DNA of 64,000 nt from an uncultured Candidatus Saccharibacteria bacterium. GTDB taxonomy: Bacteria > Patescibacteriota > Minisyncoccia > Phycocordibacterales > UBA9973. The notes beneath the pieces are model-generated. The model did not search any database. It saw only the letters and a list, made by a program, of their open reading frames with translations, and had not been told where the DNA came from. Below, in pieces: positions 6,009 to 41,951 of this stretch (position 1 is the stretch's first letter; each line of letters begins with the position of its first letter). The stretch is taken from NCBI GenBank assembly GCA_964553015.1, contig CAZKJE010000001.1:94278-158277 (forward strand), given 5' to 3'. The position numbers were made by a program, and so were the translations under genes.

Positions 6009-9000
6009 TTACTTATTTAACACCGCGCGCGTGAGAGGTCCTACGATTCCATCCCCTTTGAGTCCGCTCACAAGCTGAAACCTTACAACACAGGCTTTAG
6101 TTTTTGGACCAAACTTCCCATCCACAAGGCCGCATTCAAACCCTTTTGCATTCAAGAATTTCTGAAGTTCCATGACTTCATTCAGCACGGCCGCGCTGTA
6201 TGGAGGGCCCATCTTGAGGAAAAGAGTGAAGATGAATTTTGGAACAGTCTCCGCACCAAGAACTTCTCCTGAGACTGGGGCTAGAGGAGGTGTTATTGTG
6301 GGAGAAATTTTTCGTGACCCAGAGCTGCCACCGCCTGAACTAGGTTGTGGATTTATATCAGCAATAGTATCTGCTGTTGTGTTGAGCAAATTGTAATTGC
6401 CTGCGTCAGTTCCGGAAATTGAAATTCCAGTTACAGAAACAGGTTTAGCATTCCCAACGTCCGCATCTGCAAACGAGGCTGAAATATAAGATACAGTGAG
6501 CACATCTCCAGCCACGCGATCATCGGAGAGATCTACCGTCGCATCCGTATTTCCATCAAATGTTTTATTAACTCCTGTTGCTGTGACTGTAAGATCTTTT
6601 GCGGTAATATCCGCTGTGGTCATCACGGGAGAAGCTGTCGGAGTGTAATTTCCTAAGTCTGCGCCTGAGAGAGTAAAATTCGCTGTTACTGTTTTACCTA
6701 CTCCGACATTTTTATCAGAGAAAGTTGCGCCGGTGTTTGTAACCACAACGTCATCCCCCGAAATTTTATCGTCAGAAAGAACGACACTGGCAGTATTATT
6801 TCCATCGTAAACTTTATCTGAGGCGAGAGCTGTAATTGTCAAATCCTTTTCGGTAATTTCTCCCGTCGTATCTGTTACAAAAGTTATGGCGTAATTATCA
6901 GTTACATCATCCCCAGAAAAACTGTCCGTTATTATTCCCTCCGGTATCAAAGTCTTGCCGGTGCCGACATTTTTATTGTCATAAGTCTGTGTCCAGTCTT
7001 CTTCATCGCCCGAAGCTAGACTGCCTGAAGTGATGCTCGGAATTCCGGAAGAACTGTTTGTGCCGTCATACTCTTTTGTATCAGTAACGGCGGTAACCGT
7101 AATTGCTCTTTGAATTACATTTACAGTTCTAGTTACTTCAGTTGCCGCATTGCCTGCAGCGTCTGTAACATTATAGGTTACGGTGTAAGTGCCAAGAACA
7201 TCGGTATCAACAGGATCTACGGTAACTATCGAACCGGTAATGTCGCCATCATTGGTGTCAGAGGCTGTAGCTCCATCATCTGTATATGTTTCGCCATATT
7301 CAATATTAACAGGACTTGCGCCTAGCATTGTGATTACAGGGGCCACGCTGTCATAAGTAATTCCAAATTGCGTCGCGGCAGTATTGTTGTTTCCCGCTAG
7401 ATCTTGAACCTCGCTTGCATCAATATCCACCTTAATATCTCCCTGCCCGAGAGGAATAACACTTAGGCTGTAAACAGCACCAGATGTTGGTGTTAAAGAA
7501 AAGATACCACCGTTTTGAAGTTGAACATCTCCGCTGGTGAATCCTGTTACTGCCTCACTAAAGGTGATGGTAAAAAATATCGGGGAATCATTTGTCGGGT
7601 CACCACTTAATGATGAAATAACTACAGTGGGTGGAGTTGTATCCACGGTAAAGCTCGTAACTGCCAAGAGACTGCTTTCATTTCCGCTTCCGTCCGTAAC
7701 TTTTATAGTGCAGTTACTATAAACACCGTCTGCTAAAGGACCAAAAGTAATAGTGTTGGAGCCTGCTATTGCAGGTGGTAGAGCTAGTGCACAATCGCCC
7801 CCGACGGTAATCGCGCCTCCTTCGTCAGGTGAACTGAAAGTATAATCTGGCGTATCGTCATTGCCCGGAGTCGGCAACACGGGCGTAATTTCGGATAACA
7901 CAGGCGCCACGCCGTCGTCGGCCGTAACCATAGTTGGAGATACAGCCTGATTGCCTGCAAGATCTTTGAAGTTATCTATGTTTGTGAATGTTACGTCCGG
8001 TGTTTCCTCAGTCCCCATAATCGTTGAGAGTGTAAGTGTGACAACTCCTGTTCCTGTTTCGCTGGCTCCTGATACCGTGTGCCCAGCAACAGCAAACTCG
8101 CTTCCACTACCATTAACAGTGCTTCCATCCAGATCTTCACTGAAAGTTAGATCAATAGTCGTGGTAGAAGTAGTTTCTGCTGAAACAAAAGTCGGAGCAT
8201 TTGCATCAATCGCCAGAGTATTTGCTACTACTGTCGTGTATGCTGCGTTAGAATTTCCGTCTCCATCGTCAAGCACGACGCTCGCCGGAGTTGCTCCGGA
8301 AGCTCGATCAGTATTTCCTGATATTACAGTATAAGTAGCGGAATATAATCCTCCGCCGAGATCAGTGAAACTCAATGCATCAATCACTTCTCCATTCACA
8401 GTAATAGCATCTTCCAAGTATCCTGCTTGGTCGGACGTTATGTTTAAAGTAATTACATCGCCGATCTTTGCTGTTCCAGTTGATGGTGTGAATGATAATG
8501 AAGAAATAGATGGAGGAGTTATGTCTACAACTGTTGCTGCATATGTGAATGGCGTGCCAGCTACAAATGCCGTACATGTAACTTTTAAATCATCTTCACT
8601 ACAAACAACATCTGGGTTCGCATCCATGAGCGGAGCAAGAGCTGTAACAACTTCTGCAACACCATTGCCTGCAGCTGCGAGGTAATCATAATCAGTTCCA
8701 TTAATAGTTGCTCTGAAAGTTTCTCCGACCGAAACTGAGGCCGGAGTAAAGGTCACTTCTTGGGCAATTGCTGTTCTGTTTGTGGCGCTAGATGTCTGAA
8801 CAAATCCTGTTCCAGCAACTTTTGCGGTTAAGGTGATAACATTTCCGGCAACACTGGAAGTAAAATCTTGCGTAGCGTAATTTAGCGAAGCTTGAATGGC
8901 AGTGTTCAATCCAAGAGCTATATCGTCGTTAGTAGTATCGCCAGCTAAAACTGTATAACTTACATCGCCGTCAGTTGGCAGGGTTGCGGTGAATACATCA

Positions 9001-9896
9001 CCTTCTTCCACGGTGCCGGTAATGGTTATTTCGTTGACTTGGGCTGTAGCTTTATCAACTGCTCCAGATGTCTGCGCAAATCCAGTTCCAGCAACTTTTG
9101 CGGTTAATGTGATAACGTTTCCTGCAACTCCGGAAGTAAAATCTTGCGCAGCATATCCTGCTGAACCTTGTATAGCCGTGTTAAGTCCAGCGGCAATAAG
9201 ATCATTAGTAGTATCTGTAACTAAAACTGTGTAATCCACATCTCCGACAGTTGGAAGAGTAGCTGTGAATACATCTCCTTCTTCTGGAGTGCCGGAAATT
9301 GTTATTTCATTGATTTGAGCGACAGCATCTACACCGCCAGCTAAAGTAATTGTATCGGCAGTAACAGTATTTCCTCCTGTACCTTTTAGAATAGCTGTCA
9401 AATCAGGAGCTCCATCTATTAATGCGGTAAGTGCTGTAGCTGTAAGGACTGTGCCTGCAGTAACAGAGGCATCCAGATCACAATCAACAGTATAGGCTGG
9501 AGTAATTCCTCCTAAAGTAGCAACGGCACAGTCGGTAGTGTTGTCATCGGTAATTGTAATACTAATTCCATTTGATGAAGTTCCGGCAGCATCTGCTGTA
9601 ACAGTAGAACCATCTGCCCCAGCGCTATCATCAGACGCCTGCACTCCTACCACATTTGCTTGAGTTGTCGCTGTGGCCGCATCTTGATCATCTACGCCTG
9701 CTGGAACATTCGCAACAGTTGTCGCGGTAACGGCAGACTGGTCGGGAACTGCAGAAAGATTGGCGACAGTTTCAACATCTGTAAAAGTACTAGTAATTGC
9801 GGCAACGGTGACTTTGGCAATAAAAAAACCGCCAAACGCCAAAAGCAGTGCGGTTGCTAATAAGCCCAAACGAGAAGAAAAAGTGAGTTTTTTCAT
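6009..9896 (-). CDS. Giant secreted cell-surface protein (1295 aa): Ig-like/BIG domains, two ~95-aa near-identical tandem repeats, MBG(YDG)-type repeats, C-terminal PG_binding_1 peptidoglycan-binding domain
   Basis: Signal peptide MKKLTFSSRLGLLATALLLAFGG. The unit QVNEITI[ST]GT.EEGDVFTATLPT.GDV.YTVL..DTTND.IA.GLNTAIQ.S..YA.QDFTS.VAGNVITLTAKVAGTGF occurs twice. Repeated ..K.YDG..sa....sD....GD.v......sF.DKNVG.gK.V match the MBG domain. The C-terminus LNEVMELQKFLNAKGFECGLVDGKFGPKTKACVVRFQ matches PG_binding_1. Confidence 0.8.
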   Translation of the reverse strand: MKKLTFSSRLGLLATALLLAFGGFFIAKVTVAAITSTFTDVETVANLSAVPDQSAVTATTVANVPAGVDDQDAATATTQANVVGVQASDDSAGADGSTVTADAAGTSSNGISITITDDNTTDCAVATLGGITPAYTVDCDLDASVTAGTVLTATALTALIDGAPDLTAILKGTGGNTVTADTITLAGGVDAVAQINEITISGTPEEGDVFTATLPTVGDVDYTVLVTDTTNDLIAAGLNTAIQGSAGYAAQDFTSGVAGNVITLTAKVAGTGFAQTSGAVDKATAQVNEITITGTVEEGDVFTATLPTDGDVSYTVLAGDTTNDDIALGLNTAIQASLNYATQDFTSSVAGNVITLTAKVAGTGFVQTSSATNRTAIAQEVTFTPASVSVGETFRATINGTDYDYLAAAGNGVAEVVTALAPLMDANPDVVCSEDDLKVTCTAFVAGTPFTYAATVVDITPPSISSLSFTPSTGTAKIGDVITLNITSDQAGYLEDAITVNGEVIDALSFTDLGGGLYSATYTVISGNTDRASGATPASVVLDDGDGNSNAAYTTVVANTLAIDANAPTFVSAETTSTTTIDLTFSEDLDGSTVNGSGSEFAVAGHTVSGASETGTGVVTLTLSTIMGTEETPDVTFTNIDNFKDLAGNQAVSPTMVTADDGVAPVLSEITPVLPTPGNDDTPDYTFSSPDEGGAITVGGDCALALPPAIAGSNTITFGPLADGVYSNCTIKVTDGSGNESSLLAVTSFTVDTTPPTVVISSLSGDPTNDSPIFFTITFSEAVTGFTSGDVQLQNGGIFSLTPTSGAVYSLSVIPLGQGDIKVDIDASEVQDLAGNNNTAATQFGITYDSVAPVITMLGASPVNIEYGETYTDDGATASDTNDGDITGSIVTVDPVDTDVLGTYTVTYNVTDAAGNAATEVTRTVNVIQRAITVTAVTDTKEYDGTNSSSGIPSITSGSLASGDEEDWTQTYDNKNVGTGKTLIPEGIITDSFSGDDVTDNYAITFVTDTTGEITEKDLTITALASDKVYDGNNTASVVLSDDKISGDDVVVTNTGATFSDKNVGVGKTVTANFTLSGADLGNYTPTASPVMTTADITAKDLTVTATGVNKTFDGNTDATVDLSDDRVAGDVLTVSYISASFADADVGNAKPVSVTGISISGTDAGNYNLLNTTADTIADINPQPSSGGGSSGSRKISPTITPPLAPVSGEVLGAETVPKFIFTLFLKMGPPYSAAVLNEVMELQKFLNAKGFECGLVDGKFGPKTKACVVRFQLVSGLKGDGIVGPLTRAVLNK

Positions 9897-18844: not shown

Positions 18845-18909
18845 CTAATTAAAAACTAGTATACCCCCACACTTATTATAAGTCAAAGAAAATAAGGTGG
18901 GGTAAAGCT

Positions 18910-21900
18910 TTATAGAGTTATTTCAGATGCAGGCCGTTCAGGCTCTGAAGAGCCCTCAGGCTCGATGAGTTCAGGATCCGGCTCGGGTGTAGGTTCGGGA
19001 GCTGGCTCGAGGGCGGACTCTTCCACAACCTCACCTCCTCCTACCTCCTCCGAAGGAAGAGGTTCACTCACTTCACCCTCTCCTTCGGGGAGGGTTGGGG
19101 CAGGGTCTCCTTCTGGCGCGGGACTTGGCTCGGGTGTAGGTTCTGGGATTGGTTCAGGTGTAGGCTCCGGTTCTGGCTCGGTAGCTGGAACTGGGTCAGG
19201 CGTCATTCCCGCATTTTGCAACAGAGTTTGAAGCTGGTCTTCAGTCACGCAGGTTTCATTGATACAAAGTTTATTTTTAGCTTTAAAAGTTTCGGCGAAA
19301 ATTTCCCCTATGCCATTTGTAGCCTCCGAGAGCCAAGTGGAGATTTTGGCATAGATAGTATTGTTCAAATCTTGAATGGCCTTGGTGAGAATTGGAATCA
19401 TGCCGGTGGTGTTTAAAGACTTCATGCCGTTTTCGTCGGTAGCAACTAGTTTAGGAATAACGAGTTCTACTTCCTGGGCGATGAAGCCGAGATTTTTAAC
19501 TGTATCACCGTCTTCATATTTCCAGTTGAATAGGACGGGTCTTAGATTCATGACTGTGTCTAGACCATAAGTAATGTCTTCTATGTTTTTCTTCATTCTT
19601 TCGTCAGAAGTACAGGTGATGGTTCCTCCATCGGCTAGGGTACAGCCGGTAGCGTTGTCGCTGTTAAAGCGGGCGATGACTCCGGTGCCAGTGGCCAGGA
19701 CATCTAGGGCGTAGGTGGGATCTGATCTGCCGATGCCGACTCTTTTATTAGTAGAATCTACATTAAGAATGACAGTGGCATCTGTTTGTTGAACCTGAAA
19801 TGCAGTTGTGCTATTGGCACCTGGTTTAACTATTGTTGCCTTAGCCGCGTTATTTAATTTGCCAGCTTGAAGCATGATGTTACCGCCATATGACTTCAAA
19901 ATAACGTCATTATTCGGGAATGTTCCACTTTCTAGTCCTATATGAGCCACCCCTGAATTGTAGTTAATATAGCCAGGAAAAGTAGCATAACCATTGGCAT
20001 TAAGATTTAATGAACCATTATTCAGTATTTGTAAATCCGCTGAACTATTGCCCATAAAAGTGGCTATGGATGTACCATTTCCCAGTGAAGATTCTATAAG
20101 ATGCAGTGGGGCTGTTGGAGCTGTCGTGTTGATCCCCACTCTTCCCTCAAAATAGGCAGAGTTGGCTCGGGTGATGGTAGTGTTCGTTCCGGCAATTGGT
20201 TTAGGAACATATAACGAGAAAGCATCTGTAACCGTAATCGCATTCGTGGAAGCAAAAGTCGGAGCGCCGAAGCTGTTGGCGGTGCGGATGGCTACTGTTC
20301 CGGATGCTGCTGTGCTTGTGTCAGTATATGTGGCGGCATTTGAATCAAAAGCAATACCATCGGTGGTCCAAGCGGCAGCTGAAACATTGCCGTCAATTTG
20401 CAGATGAGAGGCGGGGGTGGCGGTGCCGATGCCGAGATTGCCATTATTCAAAATCGTCATTCTCTCGGTCAAAACTGAAGGAGCGGCGTCGGTGCCCGTC
20501 CAGAAAGAAAGTTGTCCCGGCACTCGGCTGTCGGCTATAGTGCCGGAAGAAATTGCTTTGATGGCTGCTCCCGTAATGTAGCCCGCGGCTCCTCCATAAC
20601 CTGTAAAGTTAATGACCCCCAGTTCATCAGCTGTGGTGATAACGGTAGGAGAAGCTCCGGTGCCTCTGGCTTTTCGGAAATTGAAGTCAAAACTGTCAGC
20701 GGAAGCGTTGGCTTGAGTAAAATATCCTTTTCCTAGGTCTACAGTATCGGAAGAGACGTGTAAAAGTCCTGCGGGTGCAGTGGTGCCGATGCCGACAGAA
20801 CCTTGTATTATTGCGCCGTTTGTTGGAGCAGCTGTAGCGGTGTAAGAGTTGCCTATTGAAACCCCACCGTTTACATTAAAGGCAGAGCCTGAATTAGTTG
20901 TTTTAATACTAACATTACCGCTTGCAGAGTCTGCAGATAATGCGGTGAGAGAGGGAGCCGCGCCTGCAGTACCATATAGAAGTTGGAAAAGACCGCCACC
21001 AGCATTGTCATTGGTTAATCGCCATCTGCTTCCACCAGTTTTACCGACTTCTATATATCCAGAGTTGCTCGATTCCACACGCAAACCGTCAACATTTCCG
21101 GTTAATATGTGCAGTTGAGAAGTTGGACTTGCCTTCCCAATCCCCACCTTTCCATCTCCCAAGACTGTAATCGCAGCTGTGTCGTCGTTGTTTGCAACTT
21201 GGAAAACCGTCTCTGCGGCACCCAAGTCAGCGATACCGGTGGTGCCGTTTGACTTAGCTCCGATAATTTTTATGGCAGGAGTAGCGTCAGTGGGATTAGT
21301 AGAACCCATCACACCTCTGATAGAGAGAGCTTGTGCATCGGTATCAGAAATAGTGGTCCACTGGACTCCTCCCTCTGTCGTTGAAAGAGATGTCAAATGT
21401 GAAAAGACATCAGTTTCTGCTAAAGTAGTTAGTCCATGTATTACATCATCATCGGACAAAGCAAAATCGGGAGTGGTGGTTGCTTCGTAAAGTTCTAATA
21501 TATAGTCGGGAGTAATGTCACCTATGCCGACGTTGCCCGTACTTGTATCCACATACAGATCATCCGTATTAACTGCAAAGTCTCCAGTGGTTGCAAGGGA
21601 AACATTTAAATTTGAGCCGGCAGCAGGAGTGATAGTGACTGCGCCAGTGGAAATGAGAGACGGAGTAGAAACTGAAGTAGGAGATAGAAGTTTAGTAGCG
21701 GACAAGGTGTCAGTCGCAAAGGTCAAGTCTGCATCGTCAGAAAGAATTCCAGCAACTCCGGCAAAAGTTACCCTCGTTGCAGTAAGTGCGGAATCAGTAA
21801 TATTTCCTCCGGATAAAGTCGTGTACGTGGCTGCGCCTAAGGCTGGGGTTACGAGAGCAGGCGAATTAGCAAAAACCAGCGCTCCCGTACCGGTTTCATC

Positions 21901-23118
21901 AGAAGCAGAAGTTAAAAGTTGCAAAGAAGTAATGGAACCCGTAGCTGTGCCATAGAGAGTACCGGAGGTTGGCAGAGTTACGTTCGTGGCGCCAGTTGAG
22001 GTAAGGGTAATGGAGTTTGTGGCAGAGGTGGCAAGAGTACTGCCTGCGCCCAGAGTAAGAGTACCGGTACCAGTCGTGATAGTGTTGCCGTTAATGGAAG
22101 CCGCGGTTAATGCTCCCCCTACTGTCAGGGCGTTAGTCGTATCATTGAAAGCAAAATTCGCATTGTCCTGCGCTAAATTTCCGGAAGCGTCCACGAAGAG
22201 GACAGAGTTAGCAGTACCGCTCCCGACTTCTCCGCCGATTTCCGGATTACCCACGTTCTTCCAGGTAGTGCCATTGTAAACCTGCATCTTGGAGACAGTG
22301 GTATTGAAAATGGTCATACCGGCTGCGGGAGTGAGCGCATCTCTCTGCGCCGTTGTTAAATTATTTATTTTTATGCCAGCATGGTTGGTACCGGAGAAGG
22401 AGATCAGTCCAGAAAAGGTGGTGGCTCCACCGACACCCAGACTGCCGGAGAGCGTAGTTATTCCCGTCACATCCAGATTGCCGGAGAGCGTAGTGGCTCC
22501 GGTGACGGACAAGGTTACCGTAGTCAGTAGGTCGGTATTCACTTGGTCACTAATAGAAGTGGATAAGCTGCTTAGACCATCCTCAATGGAATTTAAAAGT
22601 CCGTTGGTTTGATTATCAAAATCAGTTTGGGAGACGAAGGAAGAAGTGTCTGTACTGCTGCTGCTGCTTCCAGAGCTACCTGCTGGACCTCGGGGGCCAA
22701 CTGGGCCTTGCGGACCGGTATCTCCTTTGGGTCCTTGAGAGCCTTGGCTGTAAATTACATTCGCCGACTCCCTGCCGATGACTACCACAGGAGGGTTTTC
22801 GATTGGTATCGGAGGTGTATCGAATCCAGAAACTGTTCTTGGCGGAGTTTCTGGCGGAACAATTTGGAAAGTATTTCCATCCAGCAGAGAAGAAATTAGT
22901 CTTTGCAGACTGTCATTCATCGGCTCTACTATGCTGCTAGTGTAAAATTCCCAGGCATTTTCTGCCAGGTTAGCAGTCAAAGTAGAAGCTTTAACAGAGG
23001 CAGACTTGAGATCAAAATTAAAGTCAAACGCAGAAGCAGGATTAAATGCAGAAAAGAAAAATACCAACACAAAAAAGGATGGAAAAAGCGAACTTTTTAG
23101 AGAAGGTTTCTGGCGCAT
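18910..23118 (-). CDS. Giant secreted fibre protein (1402 aa): collagen-like Gly-X-Y triplets, long Thr/Gly/Ala-rich beta-repeat body, peptidase-S74 intramolecular-chaperone domain, Pro/Glu-rich tail
   Basis: Signal peptide. GSQGPKGDTGPQGPVGPRGPAGSSGSS is 9 consecutive GXY triplets. Near the C-terminus SDERMKKNIEDITYGLDTVMNLRPVLFNWKYEDG..LGFIAQEVELVIPKLV matches the S-D-x-R-x-K-x-N-I start of the Peptidase_S74 domain. Final tail PEPEPTPEPIPEPTPEPSP. Confidence 0.8.
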   Translation of the reverse strand: MRQKPSLKSSLFPSFFVLVFFFSAFNPASAFDFNFDLKSASVKASTLTANLAENAWEFYTSSIVEPMNDSLQRLISSLLDGNTFQIVPPETPPRTVSGFDTPPIPIENPPVVVIGRESANVIYSQGSQGPKGDTGPQGPVGPRGPAGSSGSSSSSTDTSSFVSQTDFDNQTNGLLNSIEDGLSSLSTSISDQVNTDLLTTVTLSVTGATTLSGNLDVTGITTLSGSLGVGGATTFSGLISFSGTNHAGIKINNLTTAQRDALTPAAGMTIFNTTVSKMQVYNGTTWKNVGNPEIGGEVGSGTANSVLFVDASGNLAQDNANFAFNDTTNALTVGGALTAASINGNTITTGTGTLTLGAGSTLATSATNSITLTSTGATNVTLPTSGTLYGTATGSITSLQLLTSASDETGTGALVFANSPALVTPALGAATYTTLSGGNITDSALTATRVTFAGVAGILSDDADLTFATDTLSATKLLSPTSVSTPSLISTGAVTITPAAGSNLNVSLATTGDFAVNTDDLYVDTSTGNVGIGDITPDYILELYEATTTPDFALSDDDVIHGLTTLAETDVFSHLTSLSTTEGGVQWTTISDTDAQALSIRGVMGSTNPTDATPAIKIIGAKSNGTTGIADLGAAETVFQVANNDDTAAITVLGDGKVGIGKASPTSQLHILTGNVDGLRVESSNSGYIEVGKTGGSRWRLTNDNAGGGLFQLLYGTAGAAPSLTALSADSASGNVSIKTTNSGSAFNVNGGVSIGNSYTATAAPTNGAIIQGSVGIGTTAPAGLLHVSSDTVDLGKGYFTQANASADSFDFNFRKARGTGASPTVITTADELGVINFTGYGGAAGYITGAAIKAISSGTIADSRVPGQLSFWTGTDAAPSVLTERMTILNNGNLGIGTATPASHLQIDGNVSAAAWTTDGIAFDSNAATYTDTSTAASGTVAIRTANSFGAPTFASTNAITVTDAFSLYVPKPIAGTNTTITRANSAYFEGRVGINTTAPTAPLHLIESSLGNGTSIATFMGNSSADLQILNNGSLNLNANGYATFPGYINYNSGVAHIGLESGTFPNNDVILKSYGGNIMLQAGKLNNAAKATIVKPGANSTTAFQVQQTDATVILNVDSTNKRVGIGRSDPTYALDVLATGTGVIARFNSDNATGCTLADGGTITCTSDERMKKNIEDITYGLDTVMNLRPVLFNWKYEDGDTVKNLGFIAQEVELVIPKLVATDENGMKSLNTTGMIPILTKAIQDLNNTIYAKISTWLSEATNGIGEIFAETFKAKNKLCINETCVTEDQLQTLLQNAGMTPDPVPATEPEPEPTPEPIPEPTPEPSPAPEGDPAPTLPEGEGEVSEPLPSEEVGGGEVVEESALEPAPEPTPEPDPELIEPEGSSEPERPASEITL

Positions 23119-30461: not shown

Positions 30462-31448
30462 TTAAGAAGTAGACATACCGTCCATTTTTTTGCCTATAAC
30501 CTCTTCTGCTTCTGTAAGTTCCTCTTCAAAATTTTGAAGGAACAATATTTCTTCTTCTGTGAGTTTGCGTTTGGATTGGGCTCTTTTAAGCAGAGATATA
30601 TGCTCGTTTATGTCTTTGCGAAGCAGTTTAAAAGATTCATCCACCATTTTCCCCGTCTCGCGGCTCTCTTTGCGCAGGCGGCGAACGAGGCCTAAAGAGT
30701 TATACCAAACGTATGCTCCGCTTCCAAAAAGAACAGCGAGCGCGAATAGACCAAGAATGATAGCTGAAATATAATTTAGTACGAGGCCTATAAAATCAGC
30801 CAAAAATTTTGAAACAGTTCCCTGCTTCGTTTCTTCGGGATAGTAAGTCATAGCCGGAGGCTCAGTTATAAAATCCTCCAATATTATTTCTGTATTATTT
30901 TCTTCTACGACTGGCTTCACAGGTGACGAAGAAGGACTGGTAGATTCTAATACCTTAGATTCTATGGAAAAATTGGCTGTGCCAAGATTTTCAAGAATAT
31001 TGGTTCCCGCGCCGTCATTGGCCAATACCGAACCAGAGGTAAAATAGACTTTCGCCTGTCCGGAAGATTTAGCTCTGAAAGTTACGCTAATAATATTCCC
31101 TCTGCTGCCTATGAAGCCAGGGTTAAGGGCAATGCCTTCAAAGCCAAATGTTCCCTCTGCGTTGGAAAATGCCGGTTCCTGCACCCACAGACTTACTATT
31201 GACTTGGCTTTAGATATGCCGACTATTTCGAGCTTGTCGGCAGGAAAAGAAATGGTTCCCGAAACAGCATTGACCGTTTTGTCAGGACTTGAAACATAAA
31301 CAACAACAGAAAATGTATTGCCAACCGTCCGCGACAAAACAGCGGGAGAAAAATTGAGACTCGCCGCCATGGCTGTGAAAGGCAGTAAAAATAACATACC
31401 TAGAATAAAAGAAGAGATAAAAGTTTTTATATGTTTTTTCTTGTCCAT
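30462..31448 (-). CDS. Type I membrane protein with extracellular cohesin-like domain and cytoplasmic coiled-coil tail
   Basis: Start taken at MDKKKH (31448) to avoid overlap with the upstream gene. Signal peptide, then SLNFSPAVLSRTVGNTFSVVVYVSSPDKTVNAVSGTISFP (cohesin-like beta-sandwich signature), a TM near residue 230, and a charged C-terminal tail. Confidence 0.55.
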   Translation of the reverse strand: MDKKKHIKTFISSFILGMLFLLPFTAMAASLNFSPAVLSRTVGNTFSVVVYVSSPDKTVNAVSGTISFPADKLEIVGISKAKSIVSLWVQEPAFSNAEGTFGFEGIALNPGFIGSRGNIISVTFRAKSSGQAKVYFTSGSVLANDGAGTNILENLGTANFSIESKVLESTSPSSSPVKPVVEENNTEIILEDFITEPPAMTYYPEETKQGTVSKFLADFIGLVLNYISAIILGLFALAVLFGSGAYVWYNSLGLVRRLRKESRETGKMVDESFKLLRKDINEHISLLKRAQSKRKLTEEEILFLQNFEEELTEAEEVIGKKMDGMSTS

Positions 31449-32314
31449 ATTTTTGAAATAAGAATAACAATAGAAAGCGCTACAGCAATAATTATACCCC
31501 AATAAAACAAATATTCATACCACAAAAGAGAATGGGAAGGGGCAATTTTTACAGTTTGGGCATTGCCGGCGTTATCCACAGCCTGTATTATAATATGGCT
31601 TTTAAGCGCTTGATCTGCCAGGACATGGGGACTTTGAGCAATTCTCCAACGTGAAAGAAATGGAAATGATTTCAACCGATATTCTTTTATACGATAGTGA
31701 GATACACCCGAATTTTTATCTTGCGTGGCAAACACTACAAATGATTTTTCTAAAAAGAGGGCGGAGTCGCTTGACACAACCGGCGAGAAAATTTCAGGCA
31801 GTTCTTTGTCTATTATTGACTCCGAGCGCCTCTCACTGTCTCCCTGTCCGACAAAAATAGCTACATTGTCAACAACAGCGGAATCTTTAGTGCCCTCGCC
31901 ATCGTTTAAAAGCAATTCCAAATCTTTTATTTGGATCATGGCAATTCCCTCCTTTTTCGCTTCAAAAACAACGGAGAAAACAAGATTGTTAGTTCCGCTA
32001 AAACCGCCCGGCGTGATGCCGGAAAATGAAACAGCGCCGAGTTTTTCAAGATAAGGCTTTTCTATCCAAAAATTTATGGATGAGTTGCCGTCGCGGATCT
32101 CTTTAACTTCAAGCATATACGGCAAAAACACAAGCCGTCCTGAAAGAGCATTGATGGATTCTTGTGAATGCACGATAATGCTCACGGTAAATTGCTCCCC
32201 CGTCTTTATTTTTATTTTATTGGACTCAAGGCGAACTTCCGCGGCGGAAGCTGTGAGCGGAAAAAGAATAAGTATAGCTAAACTTATAAAAATATTTTTT
32301 ATAATATGATTCAT
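31427..32314 (-). CDS. Membrane-anchored cohesin-like domain protein (paralogue of the downstream gene)
   Basis: Signal peptide. AEVRLESNKIKIKTGEQFTVSIIVHSQESINALSGRLVFLPYMLEV is the same cohesin-like N-domain pattern. C-terminal TM. Confidence 0.55.
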   Translation of the reverse strand: MNHIIKNIFISLAILILFPLTASAAEVRLESNKIKIKTGEQFTVSIIVHSQESINALSGRLVFLPYMLEVKEIRDGNSSINFWIEKPYLEKLGAVSFSGITPGGFSGTNNLVFSVVFEAKKEGIAMIQIKDLELLLNDGEGTKDSAVVDNVAIFVGQGDSERRSESIIDKELPEIFSPVVSSDSALFLEKSFVVFATQDKNSGVSHYRIKEYRLKSFPFLSRWRIAQSPHVLADQALKSHIIIQAVDNAGNAQTVKIAPSHSLLWYEYLFYWGIIIAVALSIVILISKIWTRKNI

Positions 32315-32315
32315 A

Positions 32316-33347
32316 TTAACCCGTCCAATTAAATGCCATGATGCTAAAATCTACTAGATTAACCTTGCCATCGCCGTTCAGATCGCTTCCCGCCGGAGGA
32401 TTAGGGCGCTTATACCAATAAGCTGCTATTGAAAAATCAATAAGATTAACCCTATTATCGCCATTCGTGTCCCCTCTTGGGACATTTTTAGGCAATTCAT
32501 CATTAATATTCTTTGTCCCTACTATGAAGCCTGCGACTTTTCCGAATGCGGTTATTTCTCCGCCTAGTGAGGCCTTGGACTTTGTTTGATGCTGTCCTGC
32601 TTCAAGAACTGATGTGTCAAAGTTCACCAGATAACCTCCGCTTGTATCTGCTATTTTTTTTATAAAAAATTCCTCTTCAGAACTTACGCTGATTGTTATT
32701 TCCGAAGAAGGAGCGCTCTGCCCGAAAATGGCAATGTTGTCTCCCCTCCGTACTTCGCTTTTATCGGTTGCAATTGTCGGTGCGATGAAGATACTGCCTA
32801 CTTTAGTGGTAACGCCGGATGTTACGCTGACCGGAAAGGCAAGAAGCGAAGAGCGTGTTCCTTTGCTATCTTCAGAATAAATACTGAAAATATAGTTCCC
32901 GCCAGAAATATTTGAAATGGTAATTTGAAAATCAGCGTCCGCGTCGGCCACACTTGTCGCCACAACTTGGGCGTCTTTCAGGAGCGTTATAATGCTCCTC
33001 GGGTATGCTCTGCCCGTAAATACGACATTAGTGGAAGGAATGGTGGTTTGACCTGAGTAGTTCCCCCCTCCTCCGCCGCCGCCACCCCCGCCGCCGCTTG
33101 AAACGCATTGCGAAGTATTAAAAGTGCAGGCAGAAGTACAAGACAATGTTCCGCTGGAAAACCCCAAAGAAGAGCAGGAAGCCCCGCCCAAATTAGCGCC
33201 GTCGCATTGCTCTCCCCCCGCAATAATCCCATCTCCGCAACCGGGAACTGTTGCCGTTATCTCAACGGTTATGGCAAACGCTGGGAGCGGTCCTGCGATA
33301 AAAATAAGAAAAAACGTATATATAAATAAATTTTTTATACCATTCAT
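32316..33347 (-). CDS. Secreted dockerin-containing protein with Myxococcus-type Cys-rich repeat, poly-Gly linker and Ig-like domain
   Basis: Signal peptide. CGDGIIAGGEQCDGANLGGASC matches the Cys-rich repeat CGDG..(x)GEeCDdGN. G12 run. C-terminus DTNGDNRVNLIDFSIAAYWY...DLNGDGKVNLVDFSIMAFNW is two dockerin type-I Ca-binding repeats (D.NgDg.VN..D). Confidence 0.65.
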   Translation of the reverse strand: MNGIKNLFIYTFFLIFIAGPLPAFAITVEITATVPGCGDGIIAGGEQCDGANLGGASCSSLGFSSGTLSCTSACTFNTSQCVSSGGGGGGGGGGGNYSGQTTIPSTNVVFTGRAYPRSIITLLKDAQVVATSVADADADFQITISNISGGNYIFSIYSEDSKGTRSSLLAFPVSVTSGVTTKVGSIFIAPTIATDKSEVRRGDNIAIFGQSAPSSEITISVSSEEEFFIKKIADTSGGYLVNFDTSVLEAGQHQTKSKASLGGEITAFGKVAGFIVGTKNINDELPKNVPRGDTNGDNRVNLIDFSIAAYWYKRPNPPAGSDLNGDGKVNLVDFSIMAFNWTG

Positions 33348-34363
33348 TCATTTTGTTGTTGGCGCATTGCTTGGCCGATGATAAACCGATTGTATTTCCG
33401 AAGTCCGGCCCTGCCGATAAATCCAAGTACTAAAATAATAAGCGCCAGTATTGAAAGCAGCTGCCATGGCATTATGAAAAAATTATATGAAGCGTCCGCT
33501 GTCTGATTTGTCTCTCCCCAAGAAAGATTGAGCTTTGCGGTATACCAGCCAAAATGAAAATTTTTTAATTGATCCAAGGCTGTTTTAAAGAATCCCGGAT
33601 TTGATTTTCCTTCATTTGCCTTCATTAAGTCCTTCCCCCATACAACGCTGAATTTCCTAGTACTGCCAGGAAGCACGCTTCCCTGGTTTTCGTTGGCTAG
33701 AAGCGTCGCAGAAGTAAATCTGAATGTATTTTTAACTTTGATTTCTCCCAATGGAACCACGCGATTGCCGCCGATGTTGTTAAGGCGATATTCAAAAGTT
33801 ACGGGAAGCGAGCTTGCTACTCGGCTGTTTTCTTTGACAAAAAAGTCCAAAAGGCCCCCACCCTCCGCCACTTCTCCGGAAACTCTAAGCAGAACCAAAA
33901 TACCTATCTTCCCCCCAATTGACACTTCACCCCCGCCTTCTGCTTTGGGTGGCTGACTGCCGAAGAATATGGCGGCAAAATATCCTCCTGGATCAGTGCC
34001 ATTGGGAACGGTAATGGAATAAGGAACAATAACTCGCTCTCCGGATTTGAGCGTAACGCTCGCATCCGTCTTTATCCAGGTGGCAAGGCCGTCCTTTGCC
34101 CCTACGAAGTATGGAGCACCAGAATCACCTCTCGGTTCAAAATTCTCGTAGGAGGTATAAAAAATCTTTTCGCTGTCCTGTTCGTTGAAAAGTTCAATTT
34201 CGCCCCCAACTGTCTGCCCAGGATCAGCAGTTATCTCAATCTTGGCTGGAGAAACAGTCAAGGCAAGCGCCTTGTTTGAAACAGCGAACAACAGGCCGAT
34301 TAAGAGAATTATGTGGAGTGTGTTTTTCATAGGTGTAATGAAGGTACTGTGTCCCATATACAC
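33344..34363 (-). CDS. DUF916/DUF3324-like (WxL-interacting-protein-like) surface protein with C-terminal TM anchor
   Basis: Signal peptide. ALTVSPAKIEITADPGQTVGGEIELFNEQDSEKIFYTSYENFEPRGDSGAPYF..ATWIKTD..VTLKSGERVIVPYSITVPNGTDPGGYFAAIFF resembles DUF916. C-terminal TM plus a short basic tail, as in CscA-type anchors. Confidence 0.45.
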   Translation of the reverse strand: MYMGHSTFITPMKNTLHIILLIGLLFAVSNKALALTVSPAKIEITADPGQTVGGEIELFNEQDSEKIFYTSYENFEPRGDSGAPYFVGAKDGLATWIKTDASVTLKSGERVIVPYSITVPNGTDPGGYFAAIFFGSQPPKAEGGGEVSIGGKIGILVLLRVSGEVAEGGGLLDFFVKENSRVASSLPVTFEYRLNNIGGNRVVPLGEIKVKNTFRFTSATLLANENQGSVLPGSTRKFSVVWGKDLMKANEGKSNPGFFKTALDQLKNFHFGWYTAKLNLSWGETNQTADASYNFFIMPWQLLSILALIILVLGFIGRAGLRKYNRFIIGQAMRQQQNE

Positions 34364-34368
34364 CTATG

Positions 34369-35409
34369 TTAAAAATTCGCAGTTGCTACATAGGTTAATG
34401 TGGCGGTGTATGCTCCGGCTTCGGTACTTGATGTAATGTTTCCAAGATAACGCACTGAATAAGTGGTGTTGGCTGAAGCGCCGGAAGCGGAAGCGACCTG
34501 GTCCGGAAAAGCGGCGGTGTCAAAAGCAAAACCGGCTGCGGCATAGGGAGCAGTTACACTGCCGGAACCGCCGGAAGCGGTCATGCGCAGGCCGAACTGT
34601 TCTGTGCCGGCTGATGAAGCTGTGTTAGTAGCGCCGATTGCGGTAATGGTATTACCGCCGGAAGTAAGTGTGGCCCCATTTAAAGTCATAGTATAACCAT
34701 TGGCAGCATTTGTGCCGACAACCAGCGTATGCGCTTCTGTTTCAGTTGCTGAACCGTTCGTATCGCCGGTAGCAAAGAAGTCGTCCGCGGCGGTCAAGGT
34801 GCCGAAACCGATTGAGTTGTCCGAGATGGTAAAAGTAAGCGATTCGTCTACGGTCGCTGTTACCGCAACTTGGTCATCGGTTAAAATGTTAATGACAATA
34901 TCTCCCGTATCGCCGAATGTACCTGAAACTGCGATGGTATATGAAGCCGCAGAAGTTGCGTTGGTTGAGTTTGTGCTGTCGTAGGTGAGAATTATCTTAT
35001 CACTCGCCGCAACAACAGCTGTACCAACGCCGTCTGTCGGCGCAGTGAGCGTTAGAATACGATTTTGAGTACCGGAGAAAACTGCGCCCCAGGCAGTAGC
35101 GCTCGGACTTGCGGCTAACGTTTCAGTACTTTCAGCGCCCGTCGTGGCGCCGTGGGTAAAAGTTACTGTGCCTATTGTCTTTGAAGTGAAGTTAAAGTCC
35201 GAAGGAAAGGTTATTATTATGGTATCGGTTGAATCACCTGCTCCTGTCGGGGTGGTAAACTTTATAGTGTGACTCGAAAGAGTGCTTACCTTTTGAGAAG
35301 ACAGGGTATCTGATTTGCTTGTCAAAGCGGCCGCATTTGCCACCTCTTTAGGAAAAGCAAAAACGAGAAGCGCAAAAATTAGAATCGCACCGGTTAGTTT
35401 ATTTGACAT
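34369..35409 (-). CDS. Secreted surface protein with ~165-aa C-terminal domain shared with the next gene (candidate divergent WxL-like domain)
   Basis: Signal peptide. The C-terminal domain LTFTISDNSIGFGTLTAADDFFATGDTNGSATETEAHTLVVGTNAANGYTMTLNGATLTSGGNTITAIGATNTASSAGTEQFGLRMTASGG..TTYSVRYLGNITSSTEAGAYTATLTYVATANF is about 80% identical to the C-terminus of 35534..37168. Confidence 0.6.
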   Translation of the reverse strand: MSNKLTGAILIFALLVFAFPKEVANAAALTSKSDTLSSQKVSTLSSHTIKFTTPTGAGDSTDTIIITFPSDFNFTSKTIGTVTFTHGATTGAESTETLAASPSATAWGAVFSGTQNRILTLTAPTDGVGTAVVAASDKIILTYDSTNSTNATSAASYTIAVSGTFGDTGDIVINILTDDQVAVTATVDESLTFTISDNSIGFGTLTAADDFFATGDTNGSATETEAHTLVVGTNAANGYTMTLNGATLTSGGNTITAIGATNTASSAGTEQFGLRMTASGGSGSVTAPYAAAGFAFDTAAFPDQVASASGASANTTYSVRYLGNITSSTEAGAYTATLTYVATANF

Positions 35410-35533
35410 AATAATTTAAAAAATTTTTAAAAATAAAATTATAATCTCGACTTAAAATTAAACGAAAAGTTACAATATATTATATTAAAATCTCATTATA
35501 ATAGCCAACTTCGCCTGTGGATAACATTTTTAA

Positions 35534-41171: not shown

Positions 41172-41951
41172 ATGGAAGAGAATAATGTAAGTAACGTTGA
41201 AAAAGCAACGGAAAACGAGGGCAATAACGTGCAAAATAGCTCAAAACAGATAGGGAGCGCTATAATCATAGCCGGCGTACTCATAGCCGGAGCAGTTTTA
41301 TTAAAAGGAAACATCGCACCAGTCCAAAATAATAACGGCGTAAAAGCACCAGCACCCATAACAAAAGAGGATAGAGTTCTTGGAAACCCGAAAGCGAAGG
41401 TATCGGTCATTTTGTACGAAGATTTTCAGTGTCCTTTCTGCGGAGCGGTGTCCGGACTTGTGACAGATTCAGGGGCCATACAATACTTGAAACAAAAAGT
41501 TTCTCCGGACTGGACCCCGTTTATGCCGGAGATTATGAAATATGTAAAAAACGGAGAGGTATTATTTGTATACAGAGATTTTCCATTCCTAGGGCCTGAA
41601 TCTTTGCAGTCGGCAGAAGCTGCGAGGTGCGCCGGAGACGAGGGTAAGTTCTGGGAATATCACGATTACCTTTATGCTCACCAAGACGGAGAAAATGAAG
41701 GTGCTTTTTCAGACAATAACCTGAAATCTTTCGCTAAAATACTAGAGCTGGATAGTGCAAGCTTTGACTCTTGTCTTGATGGCAATAAATACGAACAGGC
41801 AGTTTTGGATTCCAGAGACGAAGCATCCAGCGCAGGCGTAACCGGAACTCCAAAAGGATTTATTCTTAAAAAAGGGAAAGTGGTAAGCACGATAGACGGC
41901 GCTGAGGGAGGAGAAACAATACAGCAAAAAATAGACGCCGCGCTGAAGTAA
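41172..41951 (+). CDS. DsbA-family thiol:disulfide oxidoreductase (membrane-anchored, extracytoplasmic)
   Basis: N-terminal TM. ILYEDFQCPFCGAV (CPFC active site) in a thioredoxin fold with an inserted helical domain. 259 aa. Confidence 0.75.
   Translation: MEENNVSNVEKATENEGNNVQNSSKQIGSAIIIAGVLIAGAVLLKGNIAPVQNNNGVKAPAPITKEDRVLGNPKAKVSVILYEDFQCPFCGAVSGLVTDSGAIQYLKQKVSPDWTPFMPEIMKYVKNGEVLFVYRDFPFLGPESLQSAEAARCAGDEGKFWEYHDYLYAHQDGENEGAFSDNNLKSFAKILELDSASFDSCLDGNKYEQAVLDSRDEASSAGVTGTPKGFILKKGKVVSTIDGAEGGETIQQKIDAALK

What the first reader, a model, noticed from the sequence alone, without database searches (positions are those of the whole stretch)
18910..23118. Orphan 1402-aa collagen-like fibre protein with a phage tail-fibre intramolecular chaperone (peptidase S74) domain, outside any prophage context
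Nine consecutive Gly-X-Y triplets, a long Thr/Gly/Ala-rich repetitive body and SDERMKKNIEDI...IAQEVELVIPKLV, the hallmark start of the auto-cleaving chaperone of endosialidase and tail-spike proteins. These domains are trimerisation and processing devices of phage fibres. Here the gene has a Sec signal peptide and sits between a decarboxylase and tgt-mreCB with no other phage genes, so it appears to be domesticated as a cellular surface fibre. An extra ~90-aa Pro/Glu-rich tail follows the S74 domain, which normally is C-terminal and cleaved off.
Basis: partly seen in the sequence, partly recalled or inferred. Interest (0 to 1): 0.6.

Follow-up and report, generated by a model that had tools for sequence, protein, structure and literature searches.

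The report
Secreted phage-like fibre in Patescibacteria
A 1402-residue secreted protein of an ultrasmall (Patescibacteria/CPR) bacterium is built like a phage tail fibre, ending in a self-cleaving trimerisation domain, and most likely forms a cell-surface fibre. Cellular fibres of this kind are already known from the predator Bdellovibrio, so this is a new variant, not a new kind.

Summary
ORF 18910-23118 lies on the minus strand and encodes 1402 aa. It has a Sec-type leader, nine Gly-X-Y triplets and a Peptidase_S74 domain (59 bits, cutoff 22). The Ser1171/Lys1176 SDxxxK dyad is invariant across 24 relatives. Every gene with a profile match in the 64-kb window is cellular (tgt, mreBC, rpoBC, rpoD, dnaG), and there are no phage structural genes.

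It is not an orphan. It belongs to a large Patescibacteria family that NCBI names 'tail fiber domain-containing protein'. Two related genomes carry N-terminally homologous fibres in the same tgt|decarboxylase slot. About 20 other close relatives have that slot empty.

The body is mosaic, and six ~100-130-aa modules carry the 'capping-loop' motif. The family profile hits the Bdellovibrio MAT fibres (Bd2133, E=5e-21) more strongly than any phage structure.

The 'extra tail' is a recurrent family feature: a conserved Cys-hairpin module followed by a low-complexity tail.

Best reading: a Sec-exported fibre, trimerised and matured by S74 autocleavage, with the N-terminus next to the cell. Its likely role is adhesion. 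It lacks the MAT N-terminal domain, so I call it a new variant of a known kind. Interest is moderate.

The parts
18910..23118 (-). Whole fibre gene, 1402 codons plus stop
   Evidence: an identical protein, P0001, is in the public collection
23029..23118 (-). aa 1-30: Sec-type signal peptide, predicted cleavage ASA|FD, no lipobox Cys
   Evidence: heuristic; modelled as helix 8-25
22744..23028 (-). aa 31-125: lineage-restricted N-terminal region. One long predicted helix (aa 49-80) followed by a Pro-rich linker (aa ~85-115); presumed cell-proximal end
   Evidence: Only one real relative among 1.84 billion representatives, plus L018. AF2 model, (pLDDT 65-75 for the helix, below 50 for the linker)
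22663..22743 (-). aa 126-152: collagen-like segment, 9 G-X-Y triplets
   Evidence: conserved in P0122 and the L018 fibre
22522..22662 (-). aa 153-199: Ser-rich stretch and 'neck' helix (aa 164-199), probably a coiled coil in the trimer
   Evidence: AF2 pLDDT 85-94; conserved in P0122, L018, P0013 and P0068
22117..22521 (-). aa 200-334: strand repeats plus a small beta domain (LTTAQRDAL...MQVYNGTTWKNVG); probably the part matched by Pfam PF26696 'PTL_trimer'
   Evidence: Precomputed Pfam for P0001; family name; which hits share the segment; phrog_25721 and phrog_2415
21559..22116 (-). aa 335-520: Thr/Ala/Gly-rich shaft segment, the most widely shared block (about 70 of 120 relatives)
19609..21558 (-). 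aa 521-1170: six beta-helix-type modules of 99-133 aa, each with a capping-loop motif (at aa 531, 659, 776, 896, 995, 1128). The last module is the presumed distal tip after cleavage
   Evidence: profile hits to Bdellovibrio MAT fibres 8OND, 8OJN, 8OML and 8OL4; phrog_5668 and phrog_9942 tail-fibre families
19336..19608 (-). aa 1171-1261: S74 intramolecular chaperone / autoprotease domain. Ser1171 (19606-19608) and Lys1176 (19591-19593) form the dyad; predicted cleavage between Thr1170 and Ser1171
   Evidence: AF2 pLDDT above 90; Foldseek 7DC3 prob 1.00, 3GW6 prob 0.87
19207..19335 (-). aa 1262-1304: conserved C-terminal module WLxxAxNGIxxxFA...C-x4-C-VT..QL..LL (Cys1285, Cys1290). Not in Pfam-A or NCBIfam
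   Evidence: N, I and both Cys invariant in 13 sequences; modelled as the end of a helix, a hairpin and a helix, pLDDT 80-85
18913..19206 (-). aa 1305-1402: low-complexity Pro/Glu tail (28 P, 25 E of 98), no hydrophobic segment, no LPXTG

Best explanation
The gene encodes a Sec-exported, homotrimeric surface or extracellular fibre of a Patescibacteria (CPR) cell, of the Nomurabacteria/Paceibacteria type. The proposed mechanism is as follows. (1) The leader takes the unfolded chain across the membrane (inferred from sequence). (2) Outside the cell, three C-terminal S74 domains associate and register the chains. Folding of the interdigitated beta-helix modules, the coiled-coil neck and the short collagen triple helix then proceeds from the C-terminus towards the N-terminus. 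This is inferred from what is established for endosialidase and for Bdellovibrio Bd3182. (3) The Ser1171/Lys1176 dyad cuts between Thr1170 and Ser1171. This releases a 232-residue fragment (S74, Cys-hairpin module and Pro/Glu tail) and exposes the last beta-helix module as the distal tip. The catalytic residues are shown to be present; the cleavage itself is inferred. (4) The N-terminal helix and Pro-rich linker stay next to the cell. Relatives that carry a true N-terminal transmembrane anchor ahead of the same linker-collagen-fibre order support this orientation. (5) The mature fibre of about 1140 residues would be very roughly 70-85 nm long, by scaling from Bd3182. It binds a ligand on another cell or surface, most plausibly the host of an episymbiotic lifestyle. 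This last step is the weakest and rests on analogy only. The gene is an accessory, fast-evolving, recombining cassette gene sitting in a variable slot of a conserved housekeeping block.
For: S74: Pfam 59.4 bits. Ser and Lys are invariant in 24 relatives. The AF2 model has pLDDT above 90 over the domain. The fold matches the MyRF ICA domain 7DC3 (prob 1.00) and the endosialidase chaperone 3GW6 (prob 0.87).

Body: six capping-loop motifs against 0.28 expected. The family profile hits the Bdellovibrio MAT fibres Bd2133 (5e-21), Bd3182 (3e-14), Bd1334 and Bd2439, as well as phage fibres 8JOV and 6F45. For Bd3182, autocleavage at the SDxxxK serine, surface display and trimeric structure were shown experimentally (PMC10769870).

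Cellular use: the protein has a signal peptide, which virion proteins assembled in the cytoplasm do not need. Every ORF with a Pfam match in the 64-kb window is cellular, apart from an IS200-like transposase. GC3 is 0.41, inside the neighbours' range. Fibres with a homologous N-terminus occupy the same tgt|odc slot in two other genomes (L018; L092). Five of six relatives whose contexts I examined are also flanked by housekeeping genes. No close relative was found in IMG/VR. GenBank phages match only aa ~640-1285 piecewise at 25-42% identity.

Orientation: P0013, P0035, P0044, P0009, P0015 and the L032 fibre have a single TM helix at aa ~137-235, followed by the same Pro-rich linker, collagen and fibre, with S74 at the far end.

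Mosaicism: blocks of 100-200 aa at 60-82% identity are shared with different proteins at different positions. The positional orthologues share their ends but differ in the middle.

Lifestyle: all cultivated Patescibacteria are obligate episymbionts (abstract of bioRxiv 10.1101/2024.11.25.624915).
Against: Nothing here shows expression, export, trimerisation, cleavage or surface retention. The AF2 runs were monomers, and the fibre body was modelled poorly (pLDDT ~50). How the N-terminus is held on the cell is unknown. It is not the conserved beta-rich MAT N-domain, and it has essentially no relatives. If the leader is cleaved and nothing binds the N-terminus, the fibre would simply be released. 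The conserved C-terminal module also occurs without S74 in P0003, P0033 and the L006 fibre. It therefore has a role that this model does not explain. The gene is absent from about 20 of the closest relatives that keep the same synteny, so it is dispensable. One relative (P0044) lies next to an integrase and a relaxase-like gene. No ligand or binding pocket was identified, so the adhesin role is an analogy.
Confidence: 0.65

Rival explanations
1. It is an ordinary phage or prophage tail-fibre gene: a remnant, or part of an element extending beyond the window. It would be made in the cytoplasm and assembled onto virions.
For: S74 and several body segments match PHROG tail-fibre families and phage tail-fibre genes. 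One relative, P0044, lies near an integrase. Three tRNA genes lie in the window.
Against: The protein has an N-terminal secretion leader. No phage structural, packaging, lysis or integration gene lies in the 19 kb downstream or 41 kb upstream. The flanking genes are syntenic housekeeping genes in about 25 related genomes. GC3 is typical of the genome. IMG/VR holds no close relative. The phage-type members of the hit list lack a leader and end about 90 residues after the catalytic Ser.
Confidence: 0.04
2. It is a secreted or surface-bound trimeric glycan-degrading enzyme (a depolymerase of the tailspike or endosialidase type) that the cell uses to attack or feed on host or biofilm polysaccharide, rather than an adhesin.
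For: S74 domains classically mature endosialidases and tailspike depolymerases (my own knowledge; also PMC10769870). The relative P0068 carries a Pect-lyase-type domain, PF12708. The MAT paper notes that the tip cleft resembles the O-antigen-binding site of the P22 tailspike.
Against: No hydrolase or lyase family matched this protein in Pfam, NCBIfam or PHROGs. The modules are thin fibre-type beta-helix repeats like Bd3182 and Bd2133, for which binding, not catalysis, was reported.
Confidence: 0.12
3. It is a structural surface fibril (coat, spacer or biofilm matrix fibre) with no specific partner. The S74 domain serves only as a folding device.
For: The body is Thr/Ala/Gly-rich and of low information content, and it contains a collagen segment. 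The window encodes other large wall-associated proteins, namely a 1295-aa protein with PG_binding_1 and a cohesin/dockerin cluster.
Against: A gene for a generic coat would not be expected to be missing from most close relatives. Nor would it be expected to show block-wise mosaic exchange with conserved ends and a variable middle and tip. That pattern is typical of receptor-binding proteins.
Confidence: 0.15
4. It is the fibre of an extracellular contractile injection system or tailocin encoded elsewhere in the genome.
For: eCIS tail fibres can carry S74 (titles and abstracts).
Against: eCIS particles assemble in the cytoplasm, which a Sec leader contradicts (my own knowledge). No sheath, tube or baseplate gene is in the window. 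Relatives with N-terminal TM anchors do not fit a particle-borne fibre.
Confidence: 0.03

Closest known systems
Bdellovibrio bacteriovorus MAT (mosaic adhesive trimer) fibres, S74 subgroup, e.g. Bd3182 (PDB 8ONC/8OJN); Caulton et al. 2024, PMC10769870
   Same: Both are cellular rather than viral genes. Both have a signal peptide, a body of about 1000 aa or more made of beta-helix modules with the V-G-G/N-pi-x-x-P-x-x-x-L capping loop, a C-terminal S74 domain with SDxxxK, and mosaic evolution. The family profile hits Bd2133, Bd3182, Bd1334 and Bd2439 at 5e-21 to 8.5e-9.
   Different: The conserved ~130-aa beta-rich MAT N-terminal domain is missing. Here the N-terminus is a predicted helix plus a Pro-rich linker with almost no relatives. 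This protein also has a collagen-like segment and a coiled-coil neck. A further conserved Cys-hairpin module and a Pro/Glu tail follow S74. The host is a monoderm-like CPR bacterium, not a diderm predator, and the paper's list of MAT-bearing taxa contains no Patescibacteria. Only one copy is seen in 64 kb, against 21 per Bdellovibrio genome.
Phage tail fibres and tailspikes with a C-terminal intramolecular chaperone domain (endosialidase K1F 3GW6, phi29 gp12 3GUD, fibres 6F45 and 8JOV)
   Same: The same S74 domain and Ser-Lys dyad, and the same triple beta-helix or fibre preceding it. Short collagen-like runs also occur in phage fibres.
   Different: Phage proteins have no secretion leader and sit among virion genes. 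In the phage-type hits the protein ends about 90 residues after the catalytic Ser. Here 232 residues follow it.
Myelin regulatory factor (MYRF/MyRF) ICA domain, PDB 7DC3
   Same: This was the best structural match to the model (prob 1.00, TM 0.58 to target), with a profile hit of 2e-16. It is a precedent for an S74-type domain in a cellular protein with further sequence C-terminal to it.
   Different: In MYRF the downstream part contains a membrane anchor, and cleavage frees a transcription factor (my own knowledge). Here no hydrophobic segment follows S74, and the released part is the C-terminal fragment.
Bacterial collagen-like surface proteins (Bacillus BclA, Streptococcus Scl1/Scl2)
   Same: A short G-X-Y triple-helix stalk sits in a trimeric surface filament whose register is set by a C-terminal trimerising domain (BclA; my own knowledge). 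There is a weak NCBIfam match to adhesin_SclA over the G-X-Y run.
   Different: Only 9 triplets. Pfam Collagen is below its cutoff. There is no LPXTG motif and no C1q-like head. The collagen segment is a minor part of the fibre.

Membership tests
Peptidase S74 / intramolecular chaperone autoprocessing domain (PF13884) | Profile match above the curated cutoff | tested here: met
   59.4 bits against a cutoff of 22, E=4.2e-16, aa 1171-1225, profile positions 1-57 of 58
Peptidase S74 / intramolecular chaperone autoprocessing domain (PF13884) | Catalytic Ser-Lys dyad in an S-D-x-x-x-K motif | tested here: met
   Ser1171 and Lys1176 (SDERMK). Both are invariant in alignment A1 of 24 sequences. The motif is as defined in PMC10769870.
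Peptidase S74 / intramolecular chaperone autoprocessing domain (PF13884) | Fold of the chaperone domain | tested here: met
   AF2 pLDDT above 90 across the domain. Foldseek: 7DC3 prob 1.00, 3GW6 prob 0.87, 3GUD prob 0.69. The model is a monomer, so the trimeric arrangement was not assessed.
Peptidase S74 / intramolecular chaperone autoprocessing domain (PF13884) | Autoproteolytic release of the domain after trimer assembly | not testable with these tools
   Needs expression of aa ~985-1402, wild type against S1171A
MAT superfamily (Bdellovibrio mosaic adhesive trimers) | N-terminal signal peptide | tested here: met
   Basic n-region, hydrophobic core, ASA|FD. Heuristic only.
MAT superfamily (Bdellovibrio mosaic adhesive trimers) | Conserved beta-rich ~130-aa domain immediately after the signal peptide | tested here: not met
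   Searching aa 31-125 against 1.84 billion representatives found one real relative, a CPR orthologue, and no Bdellovibrio protein. AF2 predicts one helix (aa 49-80) followed by a disordered Pro-rich linker, with no beta domain (low to moderate confidence).
MAT superfamily (Bdellovibrio mosaic adhesive trimers) | Beta-helix fibre modules with the capping-loop motif V-G-G/N-pi-x-x-P-x-x-x-L | tested here: met
   Six motifs against 0.28 expected. Profile hits to 8OND 5e-21, 8OJN 3e-14, 8OML 1.5e-9 and 8OL4 8.5e-9.
MAT superfamily (Bdellovibrio mosaic adhesive trimers) | One conserved end and a diversified, exchangeable remainder (mosaicism) | tested here: met
   The N-terminal 425 aa are 55% identical to the L018 fibre, with the middle unrelated and the S74 end 31% identical. 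P0122 shares both ends at 61% and the middle at 41%. Blocks of 60-82% identity are shared with unrelated positions of other proteins.
MAT superfamily (Bdellovibrio mosaic adhesive trimers) | Trimeric, displayed on the cell surface | not testable with these tools
   Only monomer prediction is offered, and there are no experimental data for this organism
Phage virion tail fibre | Encoded among phage structural and assembly genes | tested here: not met
   No such genes in the 64-kb window. The flanks are syntenic housekeeping genes.
Phage virion tail fibre | Cytoplasmic assembly (no export signal) | tested here: not met
   A Sec-type leader is present
Collagen triple-helix repeat proteins (PF01391; Scl/BclA type) | Profile match above cutoff, or a long G-X-Y array | tested here: inconclusive
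   Nine perfect triplets, but 19 bits against a cutoff of 27.2. The run is conserved in orthologues.
Collagen triple-helix repeat proteins (PF01391; Scl/BclA type) | LPXTG sortase anchor (Scl type) | tested here: not met
   No LPXTG and no C-terminal hydrophobic segment
MYRF-like membrane-tethered S74 proteins | Transmembrane segment C-terminal to the S74/ICA domain | tested here: not met
   Maximum Kyte-Doolittle 19-residue score after Ser1171 is 0.99

The most novel reading that the evidence does not exclude
Patescibacteria as a group carry a previously undescribed class of exported S74-matured mosaic fibres. These are anchored through an N-terminal leader or TM helix, a Pro-rich linker and a short collagen stalk, and they end in a CPR-specific Cys-hairpin module plus an acidic or Pro-rich tail. 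They would serve as the host-recognition organelles of these episymbionts: the cellular counterpart of phage receptor-binding proteins, diversifying by cassette exchange at genomic hot spots such as mreC|tgt|odc and LeuRS|MurJ. In this reading the conserved post-S74 module is a new pro-domain with its own function, for example transient tethering or targeting before autocleavage.
Probability: 0.3. Interest if true: 0.65.

Novelty: new variant of a known kind. Interest (0 to 1): 0.42.

Why it matters
How ultrasmall CPR/Patescibacteria cells recognise and hold on to their hosts is largely unknown beyond type IV pili (abstracts). A widespread, rapidly recombining family of exported fibres built from phage receptor-binding parts is an obvious candidate for host-range determinants. 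It would extend the Bdellovibrio MAT principle from a predator to episymbionts with a different cell envelope. The conserved module behind the S74 domain, which also occurs without S74, is uncharacterised. It could show what else the cleaved 'chaperone' fragment does. None of this changes the understanding of S74 chemistry itself.

Tried and rejected
(1) Prophage or eCIS context was rejected after Pfam and PHROG scans of essentially all ORFs of at least 120 aa.

(2) Recent foreign origin by composition was rejected. The overall GC of 0.48 comes from amino-acid content, and GC3 of 0.41 is typical.

(3) Full MAT membership was rejected, because the defining N-terminal domain is not there.

(4) The P0121 hit (5774 aa, E=4e-46) to the N-terminal region is a sum of about 20 weak repeat matches (each ~1e-5) in an unrelated repetitive protein. 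P0123 is low-complexity. Both were discarded.

(5) Viral relatives:
- A single-protein scan of IMG/VR found none.
- A degenerate DNA pattern for WLADAxNGI gave 8 chance hits without the module.
This is therefore only a weak negative for distant phage relatives.

(6) A profile search for the C-terminal module in the 5.8-billion-protein collection returned only 4 short fragments and missed known members, so it was uninformative.

(7) Exact look-ups of P0001 and P0002 contigs found nothing. The organism is therefore placed only through the tgt relatives, which are 86-89% identical and come from Minisyncoccia, Nomurabacteria and Paceibacterota MAGs.

(8) Literature searches for S74 or tail-fibre proteins in Patescibacteria found no paper. 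The library is incomplete, so absence is not proof.

(9) Promoter and terminator scans were at background level.

(10) The L018 sequence was not accepted for structure prediction, so the N-terminal model rests on a thin alignment.

Full report
**Observation**

The ORF at 18910-23118 is real but lies on the minus strand. It has an ATG start and encodes 1402 residues.
- **Leader.** It begins with a typical Sec leader, MRQKPSLKSSLFPSFFVLVFFFSAFNPASA|FD.
- **Collagen-like run.** Nine uninterrupted Gly-X-Y triplets lie at aa 126-152. In 2000 shuffles, runs of six or more occurred only 4 times. Pfam Collagen stays below its cutoff.
- **S74 domain.** Pfam Peptidase_S74 scores 59.4 bits against a cutoff of 22, at aa 1171-1225. 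The motif SDERMK gives Ser1171 and Lys1176. Both are invariant in an alignment of 24 family members.
- **Tail.** The last 98 residues hold 28 Pro and 25 Glu.

**Genomic setting**

The window is chromosomal DNA of a Patescibacteria (CPR) bacterium. The tgt gene next door is 86-89% identical to tgt of Minisyncoccia, Nomurabacteria and Paceibacterota MAGs, and all 80 best loci are Patescibacteria.

The ORFs of the window that match a family encode:
- glycogen synthase, PGM, YceG, an MFS transporter, PLD, DUF192 and Orn/Arg decarboxylase on one side;
- tgt, MreC, MreB, a class II aaRS, S2, EF-Ts, RpoD, DnaG, RpoB/C, TrmD, RNase III and NusB on the other.

No capsid, terminase, portal, tail tube, lysis cassette or integrase was found. 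Among the ORFs that lack Pfam hits, PHROGs matched nothing. GC3 of the fibre gene (0.41) lies within the neighbours' range. The 'no prophage' part of the finding therefore stands.

**Not an orphan**

The public collection holds 243 significant relatives. Nearly all the named ones come from CPR lineages, and many are annotated 'tail fiber domain-containing protein'.

Synteny analysis of 80 tgt loci gave three results.
- The block aaRS-mreB-mreC-tgt-odc-DUF192 is conserved in about 25 close relatives.
- In most of them tgt is followed directly by the decarboxylase gene.
- One locus, L018, has a 1449-aa fibre in exactly this slot, 55% identical to ours over the first 425 residues.

An exhaustive search with the N-terminal 95 residues found one true relative, P0122. 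It also sits between tgt and odc in its genome. Other relatives carry different fibres between mreC and tgt (L032, L006), or uvrB in the tgt|odc slot. Two more fibres, P0013 and P0008, share a LeuRS|MurJ slot. The gene is thus an accessory gene in a variable slot of a conserved housekeeping block. It was inherited within a small lineage and remodelled internally.

**Anatomy**

After the leader, the parts run in this order.
- A predicted long helix (aa 49-80) and a Pro-rich linker.
- The collagen run.
- A confidently predicted helix at aa 164-199, probably a coiled-coil neck.
- A region that the public annotation assigns to PF26696 'PTL_trimer'.
- A Thr/Ala/Gly-rich shaft, shared with about 70 of 120 relatives.
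- Six modules of 99-133 residues, each with a G-[IVL]-[GN]-x3-P-x3-L loop: 6 observed against 0.28 expected.

This loop is the 'capping loop' consensus defined on the Bdellovibrio fibre Bd3182 (PMC10769870).

A profile of the last two modules plus S74 hits the following:

| Target | PDB | E-value |
|---|---|---|
| Bd2133 | 8OND | 5e-21 |
| Phage fibre | 8JOV | 8e-18 |
| Phage fibre | 6F45 | 6e-17 |
| MYRF | 7DC3 | 2e-16 |
| Bd3182 | 8OJN | 3e-14 |
| Bd1334 | 8OML | 1.5e-9 |
| Bd2439 | 8OL4 | 8.5e-9 |

The S74 part is modelled with pLDDT above 90. It matches the MyRF ICA domain and the endosialidase chaperone by fold.

The protein is strongly mosaic. Blocks of 100-200 residues at 60-82% identity recur at unrelated positions of otherwise different proteins.

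**The C-terminal 'extra'**

The S74 helix runs into a conserved module, W-L-x-x-A-x-N-G-I-x3-F-A ... C-x4-C-V-T-x2-Q-L-x2-L-L. The Asn, the Ile and both Cys are invariant in 13 sequences. The module is modelled as a hairpin followed by a helix. Only after it comes the low-complexity tail.

Module plus tail recur in at least 13 relatives. P0003, P0033 and the L006 fibre have them without any S74 domain. Neither Pfam-A nor NCBIfam has a model for the module.

Phage-type members of the hit list have no leader and end about 90 residues after the catalytic Ser. The tail is therefore a family trait of the CPR proteins, not an oddity of this gene.

**Orientation and mechanism**

Fourteen of the 37 S74-bearing relatives that begin with Met have Sec-like leaders. 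Several others (P0013, P0035, P0044, P0009, P0015 and the L032 fibre) have a cytoplasmic N-terminus and a single TM helix. In these the same linker and fibre follow, with collagen in P0013, and S74 lies at the far end. This places the N-terminus at the cell and the S74 end distally.

Established S74 behaviour comes from endosialidase and from Bd3182, where S782A blocks cleavage. Combined with that, the most likely sequence of events is:
1. export through Sec;
2. registration of three chains by S74;
3. folding of the trimer from the C-terminus towards the N-terminus;
4. autocleavage before Ser1171, with loss of a 232-residue fragment;
5. exposure of the last beta-helix module as the tip.

Export, trimerisation, cleavage and ligand binding are all inferences. 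Only the sequence determinants are shown.

**Comparison with known systems**

The closest known system is the MAT superfamily of Bdellovibrio. Those are cellular fibres, many of them S74-terminated. The MAT fibres examined were surface-displayed, and one member, Bd2439, binds prey glycans. The paper's list of MAT-bearing taxa includes Oligoflexia, PVC, Alphaproteobacteria, the FCB group and Omnitrophica, but no Patescibacteria.

Our protein meets the MAT criteria for leader, capping-loop modules, S74 and mosaicism. It fails the criterion of the conserved beta-rich N-terminal domain. It also adds a collagen stalk and the post-S74 module. I therefore treat it as working like a MAT fibre without being a member in the strict sense.

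No paper in the library links S74 fibres to CPR.

**Verdict**

The 'domesticated fibre' idea is right in substance but already has experimental precedent. The gene is one of many in its phylum.

What may be new is the CPR-specific architecture: the N-terminal anchor region, the collagen stalk and the conserved module and tail behind S74. The hot-spot, cassette-like evolution may also be new. Interest is moderate.

Noticed in passing
window 35534-37168 (-): This 544-aa secreted protein has a Gly_rich_2 domain (PF21722) that also matches PHROG tail-fibre and tail-fibre-assembly families (phrog_863 at 1.4e-11, phrog_6202). It is a second phage-receptor-binding-like protein in the same window. Its C-terminal 159 residues are 74% identical to the C-terminus of the neighbouring 346-aa protein (34369-35409).
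   Followed up: partly
window 30462-38643 (-); L094 420-9539: Seven same-strand ORFs, six of them with an obvious N-terminal leader, form a cluster. It includes a cohesin-domain protein, a Big_6+dockerin protein and several ORFs without any family match. Five of them (30462-35409) are collinear and 29-46% identical to a cluster in another CPR contig (L094). There the next gene downstream is an S74 fibre (P0016). The cluster is absent from the otherwise syntenic genome of P0122 (L092). A functional link between this cluster and fibre proteins is possible but untested.
   Followed up: partly
window 6009-9896 (-): This 1295-aa surface protein has Big_12, a bacterial surface Ig-like domain, three YDG domains and a C-terminal PG_binding_1 domain. 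It is presumably a peptidoglycan-bound giant protein.
   Followed up: no
P0013, P0035, P0044 and the L032 fibre (L032 2858-9325): Some CPR S74 fibres start with one or two cytoplasmic HTH_17/excisionase-like domains (motif AEAAKL.GYNQDYLG.L.R.GKI), followed by a single TM helix and then the extracellular fibre. A DNA-binding-type domain fused to a surface fibre is unexplained.
   Followed up: partly
L006 5690-9373; P0003; P0033: These are fibre-like proteins that carry the conserved Cys-hairpin module and low-complexity tail but no S74 domain. The module is therefore an independent unit of unknown function.
   Followed up: partly
window 41172-41951 (+): A DsbA-like thioredoxin is encoded here. 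A DsbA gene also lies just upstream of the S74 fibre P0068 (L095). It could form the Cys1285-Cys1290 disulfide of the exported module.
   Followed up: no
window 42617-43297 (+): This is an IS200/Y1-transposase-like ORF. It is the only mobile-element-type gene seen in the window, and it lies about 20 kb from the fibre gene.
   Followed up: no
window 18845-18909: The intergenic region between the fibre and decarboxylase genes holds an inverted repeat (CCCCAC...GTGGGG) followed by a T-rich stretch. It also holds a TTGACT-17-TATACT promoter-like site on the minus strand. This suggests the fibre gene ends a transcription unit.
   Followed up: no
L092 12117-15401: In the genome of P0122 the tgt|odc slot holds, besides the fibre, a PD-(D/E)XK nuclease-like gene and a Cas4/RNase_H_2-like gene. 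This fits the slot being a hot spot for accessory genes.
   Followed up: no
L097 1550-7359: The relative P0044 (2277 aa, PTL_trimer + S74) lies just downstream of a phage-type integrase, a Replic_Relax gene and a DUF3768 gene. Some family members may travel on integrative elements.
   Followed up: no
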